Shown: positions 5,320 through 13,593 of the stretch, piece after piece
Layout of the letters: every line of letters begins with the position of its first letter
Position numbering within the stretch: the first letter of the stretch is position 1
From: a virus
Strand: one strand, 5' to 3'
IMG/VR virus record: IMGVR_UViG_3300034072_001149
Span: 1 to 64,000 of that record
Length of the DNA: 64,000 nucleotides
Position numbers and translations under genes: made by a program
Notes under the pieces: generated by a model
Seen by the model: only the letters and a program-made list of their open reading frames with translations
The model's database searches: none
What the model was told of the DNA's origin: nothing

Positions 5320-6159
5320 TTATAGTCGGTTGCCAGGGATCTGCTCAGGTAGCGCAGTCATCAGACCGTTAGCCTGTGTTGCGTTGTCGAAACGAACAGT
5401 CAGCGTGATTGTCTGGAAACCGGATTCTGCATAATCCAGATCCATGTAATCAACGTTCTCTAGGAAGCAACCTTCAAGAGTCCATGTTTCAACCACAGTG
5501 TCGTTGCCGCCATCCATGGTTTCAATAATGGTCACAAACTTGTAGTTAATACCCGAAGCAAACGCAGTCTGTTCAAAGTGGTTCAGCTGCTTCTGAACCT
5601 GATGACCTACTAGCTTTGCCACGTTGTTGGTCAAGTCATCCTTTAGTGTAATCTGGATGCTGTCCCACTTGTGCTTACCAGCATAGTAGGCGGTTGAGTT
5701 GTAGCTGTGGACTTCGATTGGATCATGATTGATCTTTGGCTTGGTAACTGTGGCAACCTGCTGGGTGAAATCAAGACCACCAGCGATTGGACCAAAGTTG
5801 ACCACGCGAACGCGGAAGCGATACTTGTACTTGAGCTGGAGAAGACCGCCACGGCCTGCCCCGCCACCGAGTGGAACCATTAACATTCAGCCAGTGTCGT
5901 TAATACTGACCCGCCTTACGGCTGCTCATTGTTACCAATGAGATTAGACTATATCATGACCCACTTAGGGGCCCCACCCGTTTCAGCCCACTTGGGCCTA
6001 CGACCTTTCGGTCTAGTCGTTGAACGTTCCGGTTCATAACACCGGCTTCGCTGCTGATTGTCCCTGAGGGATTTCCCAGCAATTAGAGTGGTTTTTCGAC
6101 TAGGATTACTCCTAGAAGCAGCTATTCCATTAACCGAACTTGCTTAGAGTTTCTGCCAT
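5320..6159 (-). CDS. Tail tube protein (T4 gp19-like), spliced: join(6159..6133, 5877..5320)
   Basis: GGAGGTG RBS plus ATG at 6159 gives MAETLSKFG. Joining to GTT at 5877 gives MAETLSKFG|VPLGGGAGRGGLLQLKYKYRFRV (194 aa), with tube motifs YAGKHKW, WTLEGCF and LDY. Confidence 0.88.
5878..6132 (-). mobile_element. Group I self-splicing intron (IA-like, no ORF), 255 nt
   Basis: Exon ends in U and intron ends in G. P (AAUUGCUGGGAAA), Q (AAUCAGCAG), R (GUUCAACGACUAG) and S (GAUAUAGUCU) are present. P7 is GACUA/UAGUC, P7.1 and P7.2 hairpins are present, and P10 is UGGAAU pairing with exon-2 GUUCCA. Confidence 0.93.
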
Positions 6160-6256: not shown

Positions 6257-7057
6257 ATGTTTTATGTCTATGTTTTGTGTGATCCAAGAAGAGCTGATAA
6301 ACCCTTCTATGTTGGCAAGGGATCGCGAGACAGATGTAGGTATCATTTGAATGAGACCTACCAAAATACAAGCAATCGGCGCAAATGGTGTAAAATCGCA
6401 GCCATCAAAAAATCTGGTCTCGAAGTTACCATTAAAAAGATCAAAGAAGATTTATCAGAGACTGATGCCTATGAATTGGAAGAACTTCTAATCAAAAAAT
6501 ATGGCCGTATTGGATATGACCCAGGTGGCATACTAACTAATATCTGCGAATCTTCGCGCCCACCCTCTGCCAAAGGCAGGATTATATCAGAGAACACTCG
6601 TAAGAAGCATAGCGAGCGACAACTGGGGCCTTTGAATCATCGTTACGGAGTTAAGATGTCAGAGGAGGATAAAGAACACAGACGTCAATTCAATCTAAAA
6701 CATGGCATTAGACCGCCGGACCGAACCGGTATTCCTCACAAGGAAGAAACAAAAGCCAAGATGAGTTTAGCCAGCAAGGGAAGAAAAAAGAGTCCAGAAC
6801 ATTGTAAAGCTATTGGAGACGCACGACGAGGTAAGCCTCTAGGGCCTTGCCCTTCCGAACGAGCCAAAAAGATTGCTGAAGCTCAATATCGTCACTATGA
6901 ATTGACTAGTCCAGAAGGAAAAGTGTATCAAGTCAATACAGGACGTCTAAAGGAAATGATCAAGACGTTTGGCTGGTCATATGGCTCACTTATGGCTGCT
7001 AAGAAAGCTGGTAGAAATTACCAAGGTTGGAGTATTATAGATTTAGGTAGAGTCTAG
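6257..7057 (+). CDS. Free-standing GIY-YIG (LEM-3-like) homing endonuclease with NUMOD3 repeats
   Basis: FYVYVL...PFYVGKG...R...E...GILTN, followed by H(S/K)EETKAKMS-type repeats. Confidence 0.88.
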   Translation: MFYVYVLCDPRRADKPFYVGKGSRDRCRYHLNETYQNTSNRRKWCKIAAIKKSGLEVTIKKIKEDLSETDAYELEELLIKKYGRIGYDPGGILTNICESSRPPSAKGRIISENTRKKHSERQLGPLNHRYGVKMSEEDKEHRRQFNLKHGIRPPDRTGIPHKEETKAKMSLASKGRKKSPEHCKAIGDARRGKPLGPCPSERAKKIAEAQYRHYELTSPEGKVYQVNTGRLKEMIKTFGWSYGSLMAAKKAGRNYQGWSIIDLGRV

Positions 7058-8026: not shown

Positions 8027-9760
8027 TTACTTGCTGAAGAAGTCCGACATGATCTGCGGAGCCGCAGTGTCGAAACCAACCACATCCAACATACCAGCAT
8101 CCTTGGGGTCCGCAATGGTAAAGTTGGTAGCAGTCATACCTACCACAACAGACTTAGCAGCGATGCTAGTCTTCTGTCGGTAAGTCTTCAGAGCCTGAGA
8201 AGGGGCCTGACGACCAGCGTAGGTCTCGTTGTCCGTGTAGACAGCGAAGTTCTCCACTGGCAGCTTGTTATCAAGCGCCCACTCAAAGGGTAGCGAGCAG
8301 TCCGTGTTACCAAACGGCAAGTTCGAGACCGTGTTGATCACATCATCCAGTCGCTGACGCGGACTGATCTTCAGGATCGAAACCGGGCCTGCCTTCGTGA
8401 CGTTGGGATTCATACGACCACCGGACCAACCATAGCCCGACGACCCACCGGTAAAGCCAATGAACTCATAAGAGTTCTCAACATTAGCAGTGATCAGCGC
8501 CATAGCCGCCGAAGCGTCACGAGCCGTCAGACCCGGAATATTGCCAATAGCCGCAGCACCCATGGACCCCGACACGTCAAGAGCTAGCAGCGTATTCTTG
8601 CCGGTCGGGGCCACGTTACCAAACGAAGCGTAAAACGCCTGGTCCAGCGAGTCCACGACGCCGCGAACGACGTTCCAGGACAGGTTACCCTTGAAGCCAC
8701 GACCCTGACCATAGGTCTTCATCGCAGCAAGGATTGCGATCGGGTGAACACGAGCCTTGCGGAGAGTATCACCGTCAGAAAGCTTGGCCTTGACCAACTT
8801 CTCGGCAGCAGACATCGGCGTCAGAAGTCCAACGTTCGACATCTTGCCCAGGTTGCGGATCATGGCAGTCAGCGGCATATTGGTCAGCAGAGCCTCCCAA
8901 ACCTGCGCATCATTGAGGAACTGAGTGGGAATCGCCTCACGGGGAAGGTCGTGATCCACAATCAGCTGGATGATCTCCTTGGCAGAAGTTGCCTTCTTTG
9001 CTGCCTCGAATGCTAGGATCTGAGGATGTAGATGCGAAGAGGCATCCTGGCGAGTCAGACGAACCTCTCCCTCAAGAACTGCAGAACCACGAACATAATC
9101 CTTGGCACCAACGTTCTCAAGACCACCGACCATCCAGCGCAGAACTGCGTCACGCGCAACATCGTCCGTCTTGGGGTGACCAAGACGAAGCATGTCACGA
9201 TGCGACCATCCATCGCGCTGCTGATACTTGATTGCCTGGTTGGCCAGACGGTCCAGCGGCATCTCAAGATACCAATTACCTACCGCACGACGCAGAGCTC
9301 GACCCCAGCCACGGACGCCATCCACGAAGGCAGCGAAGTGGAACAGATGGGTGCCGATACGAGCAACCTTGGGCAAAGCAGCCAGCGCCGCCTTACGAGT
9401 TGCCTCACTATCAGCAGCCGATGCCAGTGCCAGCACAAAAAGCGCAGGATCGTTCTTGGGAGCGCGACCAGCGTCGCTGATTTCAACAACGCGATTAACA
9501 ACGCGAATACCATCCTCGGCGATCAGACGCAAAACGTTCTGAGCATTGGCCTTGGTTAGCTCGCGCTCACCTACATAATAGGTTCCACCCTCGGTTCCTA
9601 GAATCAGGAACCGATCAAGCTGATCCCAAGGGGAAACCACGAAGGTAAACCCGCCTGCGCTGTTCTTGGCCATTTCGGCCTCACGACCCGGAATGGGCTG
9701 GGTCTGTGGAGTCTGCTTGGACGTGATAGCACCCATCAGGGCGTTCTTGGAATTGCTCAT
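8027..9760 (-). CDS. rsr: Ro60/TROVE RNA-binding protein with vWA domain
   Basis: NSAGGFTF, LDRFLILGTEGGTYY, KYQQRDGWSHRD, MPLTAMIRNLGKM, RVHP, MIDAS motif DVSGS, YTDNET and DVVGFD. Start reassigned to ATG 9760 (GGAG RBS). Confidence 0.96.
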   Translation of the reverse strand: MSNSKNALMGAITSKQTPQTQPIPGREAEMAKNSAGGFTFVVSPWDQLDRFLILGTEGGTYYVGERELTKANAQNVLRLIAEDGIRVVNRVVEISDAGRAPKNDPALFVLALASAADSEATRKAALAALPKVARIGTHLFHFAAFVDGVRGWGRALRRAVGNWYLEMPLDRLANQAIKYQQRDGWSHRDMLRLGHPKTDDVARDAVLRWMVGGLENVGAKDYVRGSAVLEGEVRLTRQDASSHLHPQILAFEAAKKATSAKEIIQLIVDHDLPREAIPTQFLNDAQVWEALLTNMPLTAMIRNLGKMSNVGLLTPMSAAEKLVKAKLSDGDTLRKARVHPIAILAAMKTYGQGRGFKGNLSWNVVRGVVDSLDQAFYASFGNVAPTGKNTLLALDVSGSMGAAAIGNIPGLTARDASAAMALITANVENSYEFIGFTGGSSGYGWSGGRMNPNVTKAGPVSILKISPRQRLDDVINTVSNLPFGNTDCSLPFEWALDNKLPVENFAVYTDNETYAGRQAPSQALKTYRQKTSIAAKSVVVGMTATNFTIADPKDAGMLDVVGFDTAAPQIMSDFFSK

Positions 9761-9779
9761 GATCTTTACTCCTTTTTTC

Positions 9780-9930
9780 GGCTCGTGAAACCCACGAGCA
9801 AGGTTGGCCCTGAAAACAAGGCCGGTAGTTCGATCTAAGTAGTGGTGACGACCACTCAGCTCACAGCTCACGCTGTGATTGAGAAACGGACGGTTTTCTC
9901 TAGGTCTACAAAGCGGACGGGCTTTGTAGT
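9780..9930 (-). ncRNA. Hairpin array in the Ro60 leader (two CCGUCC loops, one CGUC loop, one GUGA loop)
   Basis: Stems at 9841-9856, 9861-9878, 9881-9900 and 9906-9929. Confidence 0.55.
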
Positions 9931-9943
9931 ATCGCCCTTATAA

Positions 9944-10240
9944 CTAGGCTTGGTTTGCCTCGTCAAGCGTCTTTTTCAGAACTTCAAGAACTTCTTCCTT
10001 GCTTCCAAAAGTGCCGCTCAAAGAGATCGGATTTGTGATGGCAACATGGATTACCGTGGGGCTAAAGAATCTGATGATACCATAGCCCTCGAAGCGACCG
10101 TTTCCGGGCTTGCGGTTATTCCATCGCGTTCGATACTTTCCACCTACACTGTAGACGTCGTACCGATAATTATTTTCGATGCCCAGCAGATCCGAGACAT
10201 CCTGGTAGAACGATTCTACCTCACTGATTTCCTTTTCCAT
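9944..10240 (-). CDS. Hypothetical protein with its own TTGACA promoter
   Basis: 98 aa (RTRWNNRKPGNGRF); -35 TTGACA at 10274-10269. Confidence 0.65.
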   Translation of the reverse strand: MEKEISEVESFYQDVSDLLGIENNYRYDVYSVGGKYRTRWNNRKPGNGRFEGYGIIRFFSPTVIHVAITNPISLSGTFGSKEEVLEVLKKTLDEANQA

Positions 10241-10274
10241 ACTCTATTTAAACATAGATATGGAAATTTGTCAA

Positions 10275-11097
10275 CCTATGGGTTGTCGGGTAGAACGGAC
10301 TCTACCCGACGGGTTTTTCCACAACCATATAGGCTGTATCGGAATACAAGTAAAGGTCTCGTCCGTGAGACCACCTCCTGCGTCGTCAGTAACATGGCAC
10401 TTTGGACCAAATGGCCCGAAGAGCAAGTGTTGAGGTGGACCGGGCTAAACTATCAAGATAGAAATCTTGATACCAACTCCCTAGGCAGACCGAAGTCTGT
10501 TTCCACGTTACTGAGTCAGCGTGTTAGGTTACTTTATCTGTAAGATAACCCACCATCATCGGCTCTCGATCTACTTATCAGAGATTCTCCGGAGACCGTA
10601 GTCTCCGGAGAGGCAAGATAGCTAGGTATCTACCAGCGCCATCCCGCGGGGCTTGAAATCAGGACTCGGTCTGATCACACCTACAGAGACCTATGCCTTT
10701 CAGTCTCAACGCCATTAGGGAAAGTAACTCTAGACTCCCTATATATCCGATCAAGGTAGTTAAGGAGGGGCCTAATCTAGGTCTTATGACCGAAGCCTGC
10801 CTACCCTCTTTATTCGCTTCACTGACTTTGGCTTCGTCAACAAAACTACTAAACCTCACCCACGAACGCTCGAGCAAGGGAGAGGGGTGATCCTTCCCTC
10901 TACATAACTACCATGTGGGACCGAAATCCCAGATCACTAGGGACACGGCTAAGCGCCCCGTCGCATTTTACCAGGTCAATTCCTGGACTTTTGTTCTCCT
11001 CCGGTGCCGTCCGGCAGATACCTTTATGTGTCAGCACACACCCCAGTCGCCAAGAACAAAATATATGGGTTCAGGGACCGAAATCCCTCCATGCCGT
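10275..11097 (-). ncRNA. Large structured non-coding RNA upstream of Ro60
   Basis: No credible ORF. Promoter TTGCGA-N17-TAGAAC at 11132-11104. Many UUCG/UACG/GNRA-capped stems on the minus strand, and long-range helices such as 10755-10762 with 10905-10912. Confidence 0.7.
10421..10565 (-). ncRNA. Y RNA-like domain (Ro60-binding bulged helix)
   Basis: 5' GAGCCGA pairs with 3' CUUGCUC with a bulged C. UGAUGGUGG pairs with CCACCUCA, then GGUUAUC follows, as in bacterial Yrl RNAs. No clear T-arm. Confidence 0.65.
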
Positions 11098-11145
11098 TCA
11101 TTCGTTCTATATAACCAAGGATTGAATCGCAATATTTCATTCATG

Positions 11146-11178
11146 GAAATGGAGAGAGTTTTACCTCTCTCCATTTTC
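11146..11178. terminator. Intrinsic terminator after tail sheath
   Basis: gaaatggagagag-ttttac-ctctctccatttt hairpin. Confidence 0.8.
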
Positions 11179-13593
11179 TTAGTTAAACAGTGCGCCTAGA
11201 TCGTCGCCGGTCGCAACGATACGAACTGGAATGTAGATGAATTCAATTGCCTGGACTGGCTGAATAGCAATATCCACCCAAAGTTCCTGACGATCAATTC
11301 TCTCCGGAGTGTTGTTGGTTTCATCGCAAACTACGATGAAGTCATACAAGCCGCGGAGACCTACGAGGTCTGCTAGAAAGCGCTCGAAGGTTGTTCGAAC
11401 AGAGTCACGTGTCTGGAAGTCGTTTGGCTCAAAGAGAAACGGCTTACTGATATTATCCAAGTTGTAGCGTAGGTAGTTGACCAAACGAGCAACGTTGATA
11501 CGATCAAGAGAAGTTTCTAGACTGTGGCGCGTTTTCTGACCATAAACAACCAGACCGCGATTTGGAATAAACGCGATTGGGTTGATCTTGTTGGAATACA
11601 GGATATCACGCTGGCCAGGGTTCAAAATAGCAGCCTTGAATTCACCTTCTTCGTCAAGGTATCCAACGCTAGAAGCGTTATTGACCAGACCACGAGTGAA
11701 ACCAGCAGGAGCCAACCAAGGATAGCTGATGCTATCGCTGTAAGCCAATGTTCTAAGAGCAATGGTCGATGGTGGAACCATGATCTCATTACCATCAACG
11801 TTGGTGCTCAAGCCCCAAGGATAATACATACCAACATATGGGTTGAAAGTGCTAACTCCATTTTCGGTATTACCGTTACCTGAATTTGTAGCAAATTCAG
11901 TGATATCTGCTCCAGTTGGCTTCAGTCTAATAGGAGTGTCACCAACAATAAACGCTACTTCCTTCATGTCCGTGTTCAAAGTAACCATCTCATCGATGAG
12001 TTCAATGTAACCAGGAGCAGCTAGGAGGTTGAAGTAAACTGTTTCAGCACGAATATCTTCATTACCCGAAATAGTAGCAGCAAGCGACTTAACGATCATC
12101 TGACGCTGAGCACGGCGACCAAAGAATGGAACACCATTGGTCTGGAAGCCTGAAACGTTTGACCACTTACCAGCCGAAGCATTATATTGCTTGACGTCGT
12201 TGGTAGACTCAGCCAAGTCGAATAGTCTCATACCTTCAGCATAGTTGAGCGGCTCAGTAGTGTCAGCTTCACCAAAAGCGATACCGTCGATTGGGTCAAT
12301 GTTGTTCTCAACATTGATAGCTTTCCAAAGACCGCCAACTCGACGATACATCTTAGGATAGTTCTCAAGATCGGAAGTATCAACCCAAAGGTCGTTTTCA
12401 ACCAGTGGAGCACCAGTAGACTGAACAGTAGGAGCCGATCCTAGAAGGATTACACCATTTGCGTCAGTTGCTGGATAAACAGTGCGATATGGACGCCATT
12501 CACCGCCTTGGTTTACCTTGACATTGACAACCAAATTCTGGTTGTTGAACCAAAGCGTGCCGTCATCAGCAGTGTTGGTTGGTTCAGAAGCGCCAGCTTC
12601 TTCACCAAGTGGCTCCCAGACGTCAGTGTTTTCGTTATAACGCAGGAATTCAAAAACAGCGCGAGTGTCTTCGTGGCTCAGGAATACTGATCCAGCAACT
12701 CTGGTTAGAGTGTTGACCTTAGACAGGCTGTAGATAGGAACAAGCGTTTCAGCCCAAACACCGGTGCCAACATTATATGTCTTCAACAGCCAAGTTGCTG
12801 CTGCGCTGATGCTAGTGATAACGTCTGGTGTGTTGAGAACCAATACGTCACCAATGTTACCAGTTGCTGGACGGAAAGTGCCATACTTTAGTTCAAGCGA
12901 TGCCGAAGAACCTTCAGCAACCTTGGCAGTTTTCCATTCAGGAGTTCCAACAACAAACCATTCATCAGCAATACGCTGGTAAAGGACCTTCTTTGAATAT
13001 AGGACCACCATGGCAAAATCACCATCAGCGGAATCAACTAGAAGAGGAACCTTCTGGCCAGCAATGATTTCTGGTGCCGCACTATCAAGGGACGATTCGT
13101 CTTCTACGATCCAAAGATCGCGTTCTGTCCATTCGCTACCGGTGTATTCATAGATACCCCATGTGTTGTTCTGGGTATCAAGCCAGTTCGTGCCATTGGT
13201 AGCTTCAGCACGTGGCTCAGAGGCCTGTGGCATTAGCTGACCGTAGTCGATCGCAGCACGAATAACAAAGGCACGGTTAGCAATACCAAGATACTGGTAA
13301 GCAGCATGAAGACCGTATTCGTTGAGTTCGTAACCATGAACGGCAGAGCCATTTCTGGTGTAGAAAATTGGGTTGCCAAACGTCTGGAGGAGTTCGCGCT
13401 GGCTCGTGATAGGGTAGAGCTTGTTCGCGTTCTCGGGCAAGGTGCCTTCGGCCACGCCGCTACCCGAAGGCAGTGACTTGAATTCGTGCGTGCCGATAAT
13501 AATCAGCGGAACAGTGCCTTCACCAGCCGTTGCGTAGTTGGATTCGTCGGTAACGGTAACAGATGTACCGGGCGACACTAGAGGATATACCAT
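11179..13593 (-). CDS. gp18: Tail sheath protein (T4 gp18-like) with large insertion
   Basis: LVSPGTSVTV, ITSQRELLQTFG, PWLAPAGFTRG, GQKT, LDRINVARL, FEPND and EFIYIP motifs. Confidence 0.95.
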   Translation of the reverse strand: MVYPLVSPGTSVTVTDESNYATAGEGTVPLIIIGTHEFKSLPSGSGVAEGTLPENANKLYPITSQRELLQTFGNPIFYTRNGSAVHGYELNEYGLHAAYQYLGIANRAFVIRAAIDYGQLMPQASEPRAEATNGTNWLDTQNNTWGIYEYTGSEWTERDLWIVEDESSLDSAAPEIIAGQKVPLLVDSADGDFAMVVLYSKKVLYQRIADEWFVVGTPEWKTAKVAEGSSASLELKYGTFRPATGNIGDVLVLNTPDVITSISAAATWLLKTYNVGTGVWAETLVPIYSLSKVNTLTRVAGSVFLSHEDTRAVFEFLRYNENTDVWEPLGEEAGASEPTNTADDGTLWFNNQNLVVNVKVNQGGEWRPYRTVYPATDANGVILLGSAPTVQSTGAPLVENDLWVDTSDLENYPKMYRRVGGLWKAINVENNIDPIDGIAFGEADTTEPLNYAEGMRLFDLAESTNDVKQYNASAGKWSNVSGFQTNGVPFFGRRAQRQMIVKSLAATISGNEDIRAETVYFNLLAAPGYIELIDEMVTLNTDMKEVAFIVGDTPIRLKPTGADITEFATNSGNGNTENGVSTFNPYVGMYYPWGLSTNVDGNEIMVPPSTIALRTLAYSDSISYPWLAPAGFTRGLVNNASSVGYLDEEGEFKAAILNPGQRDILYSNKINPIAFIPNRGLVVYGQKTRHSLETSLDRINVARLVNYLRYNLDNISKPFLFEPNDFQTRDSVRTTFERFLADLVGLRGLYDFIVVCDETNNTPERIDRQELWVDIAIQPVQAIEFIYIPVRIVATGDDLGALFN

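What the first reader, a model, noticed from the sequence alone, without database searches (positions are those of the whole stretch)
10275..11097. ~820-nt structured RNA with an embedded Y-RNA domain upstream of Ro60
Seen: its own sigma70-type promoter lies right after the sheath terminator. It has two identical GGGAU-UUCG-GUCCC hairpins (11074-11087, 10917-10930), an 11-bp UACG stem (10586-10611) and long-range helices (10755-10762 with 10905-10912; 10989-10997 with 11053-11061). One Ro60-type bulged helix (10421-10565) is present, plus two more CUUGC segments. Known: bacterial and phage Y RNAs are about 100-150 nt and tether Ro60 to effectors such as PNPase. Inference: either a giant Y RNA with large extra domains or a precursor of several novel RNAs; most of it fits no family I recognise.
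Basis: partly seen in the sequence, partly recalled or inferred. Interest (0 to 1): 0.85.

Follow-up and report, generated by a model that had tools for sequence, protein, structure and literature searches.

The report
Phage RNA-gene cluster beside Ro60
The ~940 bases between the tail-sheath gene and the Ro60 operon of this giant phage hold no protein gene but a row of folded RNA modules: a pseudoknotted RNA from a widespread phage family missing from Rfam 15, a second new module, and an oversized Y RNA that probably partners the phage's Ro60.

Summary
Window 10241-11178 is non-coding and encodes densely structured RNA on the minus strand, the strand of the flanking genes.

It is not best read as one giant Y RNA. 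It is a row of separable modules:
- A ~350-nt core made of Domain I and Domain II.
- A ~150-nt module 2.
- A ~147-nt Y-RNA-like module.
- 3' hairpins.

Close relatives carry core only, core+module 2, core+Y, or all modules.

Domain I is an H-type pseudoknot RNA. It belongs to a large family found almost only in phages and absent from Rfam 15. I validated at least 117 loci (99 distinct sequences). They lie in tRNA arrays, between sheath and tube genes of giant phages, upstream of polA, or next to Ro60. Complete phage genomes without Ro60 also have it.

The Y module carries the Ro60-helix signature (stem, bulged C, GA/UU, GGUUAUC ... CACUUG). Compact Y RNAs beside Ro60 in other phages share it, as does the culturable Sinorhizobium phage Phosso.

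The function of the core is unknown. This scan met the pseudoknot family before, on other DNA.

The parts
11147..11176 (-). Hairpin after the sheath stop codon (AAAUGGAGAGAG...CUCUCUCCAUUU), terminator-like with a weak U tail
   Evidence: The stem is kept by compensatory changes in L004, L005, L011 and L006. The scan flags it only on the + strand.
11104..11132 (-). Weak sigma-70-like box: TTGCGA-N17-TAGAAC. The predicted start is a few bases before P1.
   Evidence: Read. A box of the same kind sits at the same place in 7 relatives. The consensus scan does not call it. Inferred.
10963..11094 (-). Domain I, a pseudoknotted multi-helix RNA. P1 11094-11090/10967-10963; P2 11088-11073; PK CCCA 11069-11066 with UGGG 11045-11042; P3 11061-11053/10997-10989; P4 11040-11026; P5 11015-11000; P6 10986-10971.
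   Evidence: Alifold. Family model R1. Covariation: 92% of cells paired, and 298 double-change cells against 81 in shuffles. Pseudoknot test.
10917..10959 (-). Two linker hairpins, 10959-10940 and GGGAUUUCGGUCCC at 10930-10917
   Evidence: The first has 3-6 double changes per pair. The second varies compensatorily in the alignment.
10747..10912 (-). Domain II, a multi-branched fold closed by 10912-10905/10762-10755. It ends in a conserved GAUCGG (10752-10747).
   Evidence: 32 of 54 pairs have compensatory changes among 10 relatives. Phosso and L174 show recognisably similar stretches (UAAGUAGUU, CGAAAUGAAAAGGG, closing GAUCGAA), although nhmmer does not match them.
10586..10739 (-). Module 2, with conserved UGAAAGGCAUAG and the 11-bp UACG hairpin at 10611-10586. 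It is absent from L099, L058, L006 and L010.
   Evidence: 21 of 42 pairs have compensatory changes. Presence and absence.
10420..10566 (-). Y-RNA-like module. Lower stem AGAGC/GCUCU, bulged C 10561, GA/UU, upper stem GGUGG/CCACC, GUUAUC 10549-10544, CACUUG 10429-10424, and a ~105-nt multi-hairpin insert.
10346..10419 (-). 3' hairpins, including a terminator-like stem at 10372-10355 followed by UUUACUUGU
10283..10312 (-). Conserved 12-bp hairpin. It reads as a terminator only on the + strand.
   Evidence: L004 keeps the stem through compensatory changes.
9944..10240 (-). 98-aa protein with an invariant RWNNR..GNGRF motif. It always follows the RNA, including in L045, where it precedes the tube gene and no Ro60 lies between.
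   Evidence: No Pfam, PHROG or PDB match.
8027..9871 (-). Phage Ro60 (TROVE + Ro60 vWA)

Best explanation
The gap between the sheath gene and the Ro60 operon is an RNA-gene cluster read on the minus strand. Transcription probably starts at a weak promoter just after the sheath terminator and runs about 750 nt to a terminator-like hairpin at 10372-10355. It may be helped by internal starts.

The product carries four autonomous folds:
1. A core RNA made of Domain I and Domain II. Domain I is an H-type pseudoknotted module of a large family found almost only in phages and missing from Rfam 15.
2. Module 2.
3. An enlarged Y RNA. Its closing helix is the Ro60 binding site. It is therefore expected to load the Ro60 made from the next operon. 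Following Deinococcus RYPER and Thermus phage phiLo, it would link Ro60 to a host RNA enzyme such as PNPase.
4. 3' hairpins.

The core RNA works independently of Ro60, because most family members live in phages without Ro60. It behaves like a stable RNA gene that is cut out of longer transcripts: it sits between tRNAs with spacers of 0-35 nt. What it does biochemically is not known. My leading guess is a trans-acting scaffold or decoy in the phage's tRNA and RNA-turnover biology.

Shown: the folds, the strand, the family, the modularity, the Y signature, and the signature's confinement to Ro60 loci. Inferred: the transcript ends, processing into pieces, Ro60 binding, and any function.
For: Real, strand-specific structure:
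-.

No coding signal:
-.

Modularity:
- Window, L001, L004 and L005 have core + module 2 + Y + tail.
- L099 and L058 have core + Y + tail.
- L011 and L013 have core + module 2.
- L006 and L010 have core only.
- L045 has the core with no Ro60 between the 98-aa gene and the tube gene.

Domain I family:
- 52 + 65 loci validated with model R1.
- No Rfam match.
- One exact pattern match, not confirmed by R1, in 185,579 prokaryote genomes.

Pseudoknot:
- The compensated CCUA/UAGG variant gave at least 80 loci, 65 of them validated.
- The uncompensated CCCA/UAGG variant gave 17 loci, none validated.
- Phosso, found by the model and not by the pattern, has the compensated form.

Contexts:
- tRNA arrays, with 16 loci within 35 nt of a tRNA gene.
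- Sheath-to-tube gaps and upstream of polA.
- Directly after Ro60 in L154, L132 and L138.
- TROVE is absent from complete genomes G003, G005 and G006.

Y module:
- The helix is invariant in 6 relatives.
- It covaries against Phosso (GAAGC/GCUUC, AAAGGG/CCCUUU) and L174.
- Compact RNAs with the same signature lie just upstream of Ro60 in L030, L154 and L132. One scores 37.0 bits on RF01656, whose gathering score is 38.
- CCGANG-N4-10-GGTTATC occurs once in the window, against 0.03 expected. Among 207 loci it occurs in 16, and 15 of those belong to Ro60-encoding contigs.

Precedents:
- Y RNAs lie next to Ro60 in more than 250 bacteria and phages (PMC4201824).
- phiLo Ro60 with Yrl1/2 and host PNPase (PMC12135203).
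Against: - No expression data exist, so ends, processing and even transcription are unproven.
- No intrinsic terminator separates the modules, which also fits one long functional RNA.
- The Y module fails Rfam thresholds. It scores 16.8 bits on RF00019. The L058 copy gets no hit. My model of compact phage Y RNAs reaches only the 5' half, at E=0.46, because the insert is too long.
- Ro60 relatives L006, L010, L011 and L013 have no detectable Y module in this gap. Either their Y RNA is elsewhere or Ro60 uses another RNA.
- Domain I recurs beside Ro60 in at least two arrangements. A functional link between the core and Ro60 is therefore possible and would weaken 'independent of Ro60'.
Confidence: 0.62

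Rival explanations
1. One giant Y RNA. The whole ~750-nt transcript is a single functional RNA. The Ro60-binding helix tethers Ro60 in cis to the pseudoknotted core and module 2, which act as effector-recruiting or client domains.
For: - There is one promoter-like box at the start and one terminator-like hairpin at the end.
- Phosso has a strong terminator only after its Y module.
- The order core-then-Y is kept from the window to Phosso, whose Ro60 is 51% identical.
- Domain I also sits 22-29 nt after Ro60 in L154, L132 and L138.
Against: - Modules are gained and lost independently among close relatives.
- Domain I is autonomous in tRNA arrays and in genomes without Ro60.
- Promoter-like boxes sit exactly at the Y 5' end in Phosso and L005.
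- Known Y RNAs form their stem from their own 5' and 3' ends (PMC4201824).
Confidence: 0.17
2. A long structured 5' leader, or intercistronic regulator, of the 98-aa/Ro60 operon or of the late tail operon. Domain I would act in cis as a riboswitch, a ribozyme, or a processing or stability element.
For: - The compact Domain I sits 12-31 nt before polA start codons and 4-15 nt after the preceding gene.
- The long forms sit between sheath and tube.
- It has many conserved unpaired bases and a pseudoknot, as aptamers and ribozymes do.
- Salmonella co-transcribes rsr with its Y RNAs (PMC7790460).
Against: - About a quarter of the distinct validated loci whose fetched stretch holds any tRNA have Domain I wedged between tRNAs, with no downstream ORF to regulate.
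- Downstream genes are heterogeneous.
- P1 is long, up to 11 bp, and does not occlude the ribosome-binding site.
- In the window a terminator-like hairpin separates the RNAs from the 98-aa gene.
Confidence: 0.13
3. Not an RNA feature. The gap holds small protein genes, a decayed gene, or a DNA-level element such as an origin or packaging site.
For: Small ORFs of 45-72 aa exist on the minus strand. Both strands fold better than shuffles.
Against: - The ORFs are not conserved in extent, and there are 10-26 stops per frame.
- Indels of 1-2 nt are common.
- Compensatory pair changes are abundant, and G-U greatly exceeds A-C, which a double-stranded DNA element would not show.
Confidence: 0.03

Closest known systems
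Y RNAs: metazoan Y RNA (RF00019), nematode sbRNAs (RF01656), bacterial YrlA/Yrn1 (RF02553; PMC4201824), and Yrl1/Yrl2 of Thermus phage phiLo (PMC12135203)
   Same: - It is encoded next to a Ro60 gene.
- Its closing helix has a covarying lower stem, a bulged C, GA opposite UU, an internal loop, an upper stem, then GUUAUC, with CACUUG on the 3' strand.
- That layout matches the RF01656 consensus printed. It also matches human Y1 as I recall it.
   Different: - The module is about 147 nt here and about 210 nt in Phosso, against 80-130 nt for known Y RNAs.
- The loop is replaced by 3-4 hairpins.
- There is no tRNA-like domain.
- The 5' motif is GCCGAUG rather than GNCGAA(N)G.
- It scores below every Rfam gathering threshold.
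- It stands in a row with other structured RNAs.
ROOL and GOLLD large ornate RNAs (Rfam; cryo-EM in PMC12286853)
   Same: They are large, highly structured RNAs associated with phages, and their function is unknown. I recall that they often lie near tRNA genes; I did not check this.
   Different: There is no sequence or structure match, with no hit at E<=10. Nothing here shows multimer formation. The core is smaller, at about 350 nt, and is built around a ~105-nt pseudoknot module that also occurs alone.
Uncatalogued pseudoknotted phage RNA noted earlier in this scan between sheath and tube genes (e1-5692292, e1-5694173)
   Same: Same place (after the sheath gene), same description (pseudoknot, absent from Rfam, found in tRNA clusters or beside Ro60), and one culturable member.
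   Different: Here it is extended by Domain II and followed by module 2 and a Y RNA, with the Ro60 operon inserted before the tube gene. I could not compare sequences with those reports.
Candidate structured RNAs of IMG/VR (Fremin et al. 2023, PMC10690425)
   Same: That study lists 8,495 unnamed covarying RNAs of 29-151 nt from the same collection. Domain I may be among them.
   Different: Its supplementary alignments are not held here, so I could not check. The main text does not mention the words tail, DNA polymerase or jumbo. I did not search it for Ro60.

Membership tests
Y RNA (Ro60 partner RNA) | Encoded adjacent to a Ro60/TROVE gene | tested here: met
   The module at 10420-10566 lies about 550 nt upstream of Ro60 (8027-9871) on the same strand. 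The signature motif is confined to Ro60 loci in 15 of the 16 loci that have it.
Y RNA (Ro60 partner RNA) | Long stem with a bulged helix and the conserved 5'-strand motif (GGUCCGA or GNCGAAN0-1G) facing CACUUG | tested here: met
   - The helix reads AGAGC-C-GA...GGUGG-GUUAUC / CCACC...CAC-UU-GCUCU.
- The 5' motif is GCCGAUG, one base off the bacterial consensus quoted in PMC4201824.
- The stems covary against Phosso, L174, L154 and L030.
Y RNA (Ro60 partner RNA) | Reaches the Rfam gathering score of RF00019, RF01656 or RF02553 | tested here: not met
   RF00019 scores 16.8 bits against a threshold of 38. The L058 copy gets no hit. Compact relatives in L154 reach 37.0 against 38 on RF01656.
Y RNA (Ro60 partner RNA) | Size of 80-130 nt with a single large internal loop | tested here: not met
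   The module is 147 nt with a ~105-nt insert of several hairpins.
Y RNA (Ro60 partner RNA) | Binds Ro60 | not testable with these tools
   This needs EMSA or RIP. The complex predictor does not take RNA.
YrlA-type bacterial Y RNA | tRNA-like domain with T and D arms | tested here: not met
   There is no RF02553 or tRNA hit in the gap. L154 and L132, by contrast, have such RNAs beside Ro60.
ROOL / GOLLD | Match to the Rfam covariance models | tested here: not met
   No hit at E<=10 in 9800-11400, and none at the gathering threshold in the window.
Uncatalogued phage pseudoknot RNA (Domain I family) | P3, P4 and P5 around the junction strands CUGAACC(C/U)AUAA, GGUGACU(G/A)GG and GUAANGGUA | tested here: met
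   The window has all of them. The helices covary in 43 distinct sequences. The window was in the model's seed, so its own 100-bit score is by construction.
Uncatalogued phage pseudoknot RNA (Domain I family) | Pseudoknot between CCCA and UGGG | tested here: met
   65 of the compensated-variant loci were validated, against 0 of 17 uncompensated ones. The U-G wobble variant was not scanned.

The most novel reading that the evidence does not exclude
The pseudoknotted core is not a bystander. It would be a second, undescribed class of Ro60-linked RNA, or a new ribozyme or aptamer class. In these giant phages it would be made in one piece with the Y RNA, so that Ro60 is tethered in cis to it. That would be a ~750-nt RNP unlike any known Y RNP. 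The same pseudoknot RNA placed 22-29 nt after Ro60 in an unrelated phage lineage would then reflect a shared mechanism.
Probability: 0.15. Interest if true: 0.9.

Novelty: new variant of a known kind. Interest (0 to 1): 0.72.

Why it matters
Ro60 and Y RNAs are conserved from bacteria to humans, where Ro60 is a lupus and Sjögren autoantigen. What decides their targets is still unclear. Phage versions have only just begun to be studied, with one Thermus phage so far.

This locus shows three things:
- A Y RNA can be expanded to 150-210 nt with a new insert.
- Phage Y RNAs share the GUUAUC/CACUUG signature with animal Y RNAs.
- Ro60 loci recurrently neighbour a very common phage pseudoknot RNA that I found in no catalogue I could check.

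That RNA has about 100 distinct validated copies, a proven pseudoknot and many invariant unpaired bases. It is a good candidate for a new functional RNA class. One carrier, Sinorhizobium phage Phosso, is culturable, so the questions can be tested directly.

Tried and rejected
- blastn of the gap against 50,697 phage records found nothing.
- Rfam 15 at the gathering threshold and at E<=10, on the window and on 14 related loci, found no family for the core.
- ARAGORN found no tRNA or tmRNA in the window. The T-arm look of the L018 and L048 variants is not recognised either.
- RNAalifold on a MAFFT alignment of 39 diverse Domain I copies failed, predicting only the CCCA/UGGG pairs. I solved this by seeding a model on 14 length-matched copies.
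- Model R2, built from compact phage Y RNAs, cannot bridge the long insert. It gave only a 5'-half hit in L001 at E=0.46. I therefore used motif statistics and direct helix comparison instead.
- The idea that the core depends on Ro60 is rejected. TROVE is missing from complete genomes that carry Domain I.
- The idea that it comes from a prophage or host is rejected. There was 1 pattern match in 185,579 genomes.
- Atu_ph07, PA5oct, CBB and Turkey5 show no Domain I.
- Of 16 metagenome contigs hit by an 18-mer, only those of the window's clade are real.
- The 98-aa protein has no Pfam or PHROG match. Its AlphaFold model (pLDDT 77) has no PDB match at E<=0.001.
- Literature searches found no description of the core. 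The supplementary files of PMC10690425 are not held.

Full report
**Setting.**
- The window is part of a 159-kb fragment of a giant myovirus.
- Its sheath protein is about 50% identical to those of Agrobacterium phage Atu_ph07 and Sinorhizobium phage Phosso.
- On the minus strand the order is:
  - sheath (11179-13593);
  - a 938-nt gap (10241-11178);
  - a 98-aa ORF (9944-10240);
  - Ro60 (8027-9871; TROVE 3e-41, Ro60 vWA 5e-54);
  - a 303-aa ORF;
  - the tube gene.

**The observation.**
- The gap folds far better than shuffles, with z = -5.0. The plus strand does too, so I used comparative evidence.
- Related contigs found through Ro60 and through a 20-mer of the gap keep the synteny sheath - gap - 98-aa - Ro60. 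Their gaps are 478 to 995 nt long.
- Small ORFs in the gap are not conserved. Every frame has 10-26 stops, and indels are mostly 1-2 nt.
- In the predicted helices G-U pairs outnumber A-C by about 10 to 1 in every module. The RNA is therefore read on the minus strand.

**Modules.** Alignment of eight gaps and profile searches show four separable units.
- The core (window 10743-11099) is in all relatives.
- Module 2 (10586-10739) is only in the window, L001, L004, L005, L011 and L013.
- The Y-like module (10420-10566) is only in the window, L001, L004, L005, L099 and L058.
- L006 and L010 have the core alone.
- L045 has the core, then the 98-aa gene, then the tube gene, with no Ro60 between.
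- Each unit is supported by compensatory changes:
  - core: 50 of 93 pairs;
  - Domain II: 32 of 54;
  - module 2: 21 of 42.
One is P3 of Domain I. The other is the closing helix of Domain II.

**Domain I belongs to a large family.**
- A covariance model seeded on 14 copies (R1) validated 52 of those loci.
- In 43 distinct sequences, 92% of cells pair. There are 298 double-change cells against 81 in shuffles (0 of 500 shuffles reach that), and shifted registers collapse.
- The family is not in Rfam 15.
- It is essentially absent from 185,579 prokaryote genomes: one pattern match, which R1 did not confirm.

**The pseudoknot.**
- A pseudoknot between CCCA (11069-11066) and UGGG (11045-11042) was suggested by Phosso. 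The model found Phosso, and it carries CCUA/UAGG.
- I tested this by scanning for variants.
- The uncompensated CCCA...UAGG gave 17 loci, none validated.
- In all there are 117 validated loci and 99 distinct sequences.

**Contexts of Domain I.**
- Long forms lie after sheath genes and before tube genes of giant myoviruses.
- Compact ~110-nt forms lie 12-31 nt upstream of polA genes, or before HNH endonuclease genes.
- Sixteen loci have it within 35 nt of a tRNA gene inside arrays of up to 17 tRNAs. That is the behaviour of an RNA gene released by tRNA processing.
- TROVE is absent from three complete or nearly complete (97-100%) genomes that carry Domain I, and present in two other giant ones at distant sites. 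The family therefore does not need Ro60.
- Yet it recurs beside Ro60:
  - upstream in the window's clade, L065, L174 and Phosso;
  - 22-29 nt downstream of Ro60 in L154, L132 and L138;
  - 3.4 kb upstream in L030.
- Among pattern-fetched loci, 8 of 92 validated ones hold Ro60. The only non-validated loci with Ro60 are duplicates of the window's clade.

**The Y-like module.**
- Rfam gives only a weak Y_RNA hit: 16.8 bits, E = 3.5.
- The helix is invariant in six relatives while the interior changes.
- The decisive comparison came from L154, L132 and L030. Directly upstream of their Ro60 genes lie arrays of compact ~60-nt RNAs and tRNA-like YrlA-type RNAs.
- The compact RNAs fold as lower stem - CGAAG - upper stem - GGUUAUC ... 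CCUUGCCC, with covarying stems.
- One scores 37.0 bits on RF01656 (gathering 38, E = 2.5e-5). From my own knowledge, that nematode family comprises the sbRNAs, which are regarded as Y RNA homologues. Its consensus reads UCGGUCCGG...UGGGUUAUC...CAACUUGACC.
- The window's module has the same layout: AGAGC-C-GA-UGAU-GGUGG-GUUAUC ... CCACC-UCAACAC-UU-GCUCU.
- Phosso has it too: GAAGC-C-GA-CGUAAAAGGG-UUAUC ... CCCUUUAC-UCAC-UU-GCUUC. Both of its stems change compensatorily relative to the window. L174 has a more divergent copy.
- The motif CCGANG-N4-10-GGTTATC occurs once in the 64-kb window, against 0.03 expected.
- Among 207 loci (1.9 Mb) it occurs in 16, and 15 of those belong to Ro60-encoding contigs.
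- My model of the compact RNAs cannot span the long insert, and the L058 copy gets no Rfam hit. Formal family thresholds are therefore not met.
- I conclude that this is an enlarged member of the Y RNA kind. It lacks the tRNA-like domain of YrlA.

**One RNA or several?**
- For one transcript:
  - There is a single promoter-like box at the start: TTGCGA-N17-TAGAAC. A box of the same kind sits at the same place in all relatives, but the scan does not call it.
  - There is no intrinsic terminator between modules.
  - One terminator-like hairpin follows at 10372-10355.
  - Phosso likewise has a strong terminator only after its Y module.
- For separate functional RNAs:
  - Modules are shuffled among close relatives.
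  - Domain I is autonomous elsewhere.
  - Promoter-like boxes are placed to start exactly at the Y stem in Phosso (TTGACG-N18-TAAATA) and in L005 (TTGACA-N17-TAATGA).
- I favour co-transcription with processing. Salmonella's rsr-yrlBA-rtcBA operon (PMC7790460) and tRNA arrays work this way.

**Mechanism.**
- By analogy, the Y module would bind the phage Ro60 and bridge it to a host enzyme such as PNPase. The precedents are Deinococcus and Salmonella (PMC4201824) and Thermus phage phiLo. In phiLo two Y-like RNAs upstream of Ro60 bind it and host PNPase, and they damp PNPase activity (PMC12135203). This is inference.
- The core's function is unknown.
- Its conserved unpaired junctions and pseudoknot would suit a ligand, a protein or catalysis.
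- Its placement among tRNAs suggests a stable trans-acting RNA.

**Comparison and novelty.**
- The Y module is a new, oversized variant of a known kind.
- The core belongs to an RNA family that I could not find in Rfam or in the papers searched. It could be among the unnamed candidates of PMC10690425, whose files I could not read.
- Two earlier reports of this scan describe what appears to be the same pseudoknot family between sheath and tube genes of other phages. I reached it independently and tested it here.

Noticed in passing
window 5878-6132 (-), with exon 1 at 6133-6159 and exon 2 from 5877 down: The tail tube gene is split after codon 9 by a group I intron (Rfam RF00028, 89 bits at 5925-6142). 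The exon-1 peptide MAETLSKFG matches the N-terminus of the uninterrupted tube protein of L005. L001 seems to lack the intron, while L002 and L003 seem to have it.
   Followed up: partly
window 6257-7057 (+): A GIY-YIG/NUMOD3 homing endonuclease gene on the opposite strand, next to the intron.
   Followed up: no
window 9944-10240 (-): A 98-aa protein with an invariant RTRWNNRxPGNGRFEGxG motif. It always follows the structured RNA in this phage clade, including in L045, where no Ro60 lies between it and the tube gene. It has no Pfam, PHROG or PDB relative. It is a possible RNA-binding partner.
   Followed up: partly
L154:7560-8260 (-) and L132:12190-12600 (-): Upstream of Ro60 in ~100-150-kb phages lie arrays of five or six Y-type RNAs. 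Some are compact and sbRNA-like. Others are tRNA-like and YrlA-type, with D and T arms and a GGGCCGAAG insert. The pseudoknot RNA follows 22-29 nt after the Ro60 stop codon.
   Followed up: partly
L106 (Phosso PV764938) locus 9088-9333: An annotated 'hypothetical protein' lies wholly inside the Y-like RNA module (about 9031-9243, with a terminator at 9355-9390). It is probably a miscalled ORF.
   Followed up: partly
L084, L043, L072, L022, L054, L077: about 30-40 nt before the tube start codons: A (C/A)ATAAATA box resembling the T4 late promoter TATAAATA precedes the tube gene after the RNA. In the window's clade a TTAAATAG box sits only 5-8 nt before the 98-aa start codon.
   Followed up: no
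module boundaries: window 10752-10747 and 10569-10565; also L060, L024, L106, L045: A conserved GAUCG(A/G) closes the core RNA and recurs just before the Y stem. It could be a processing or 3'-end signal.
   Followed up: no
L046, and other loci: HNH endonuclease genes are repeatedly inserted right after the compact pseudoknot RNA, ahead of polA.
   Followed up: no
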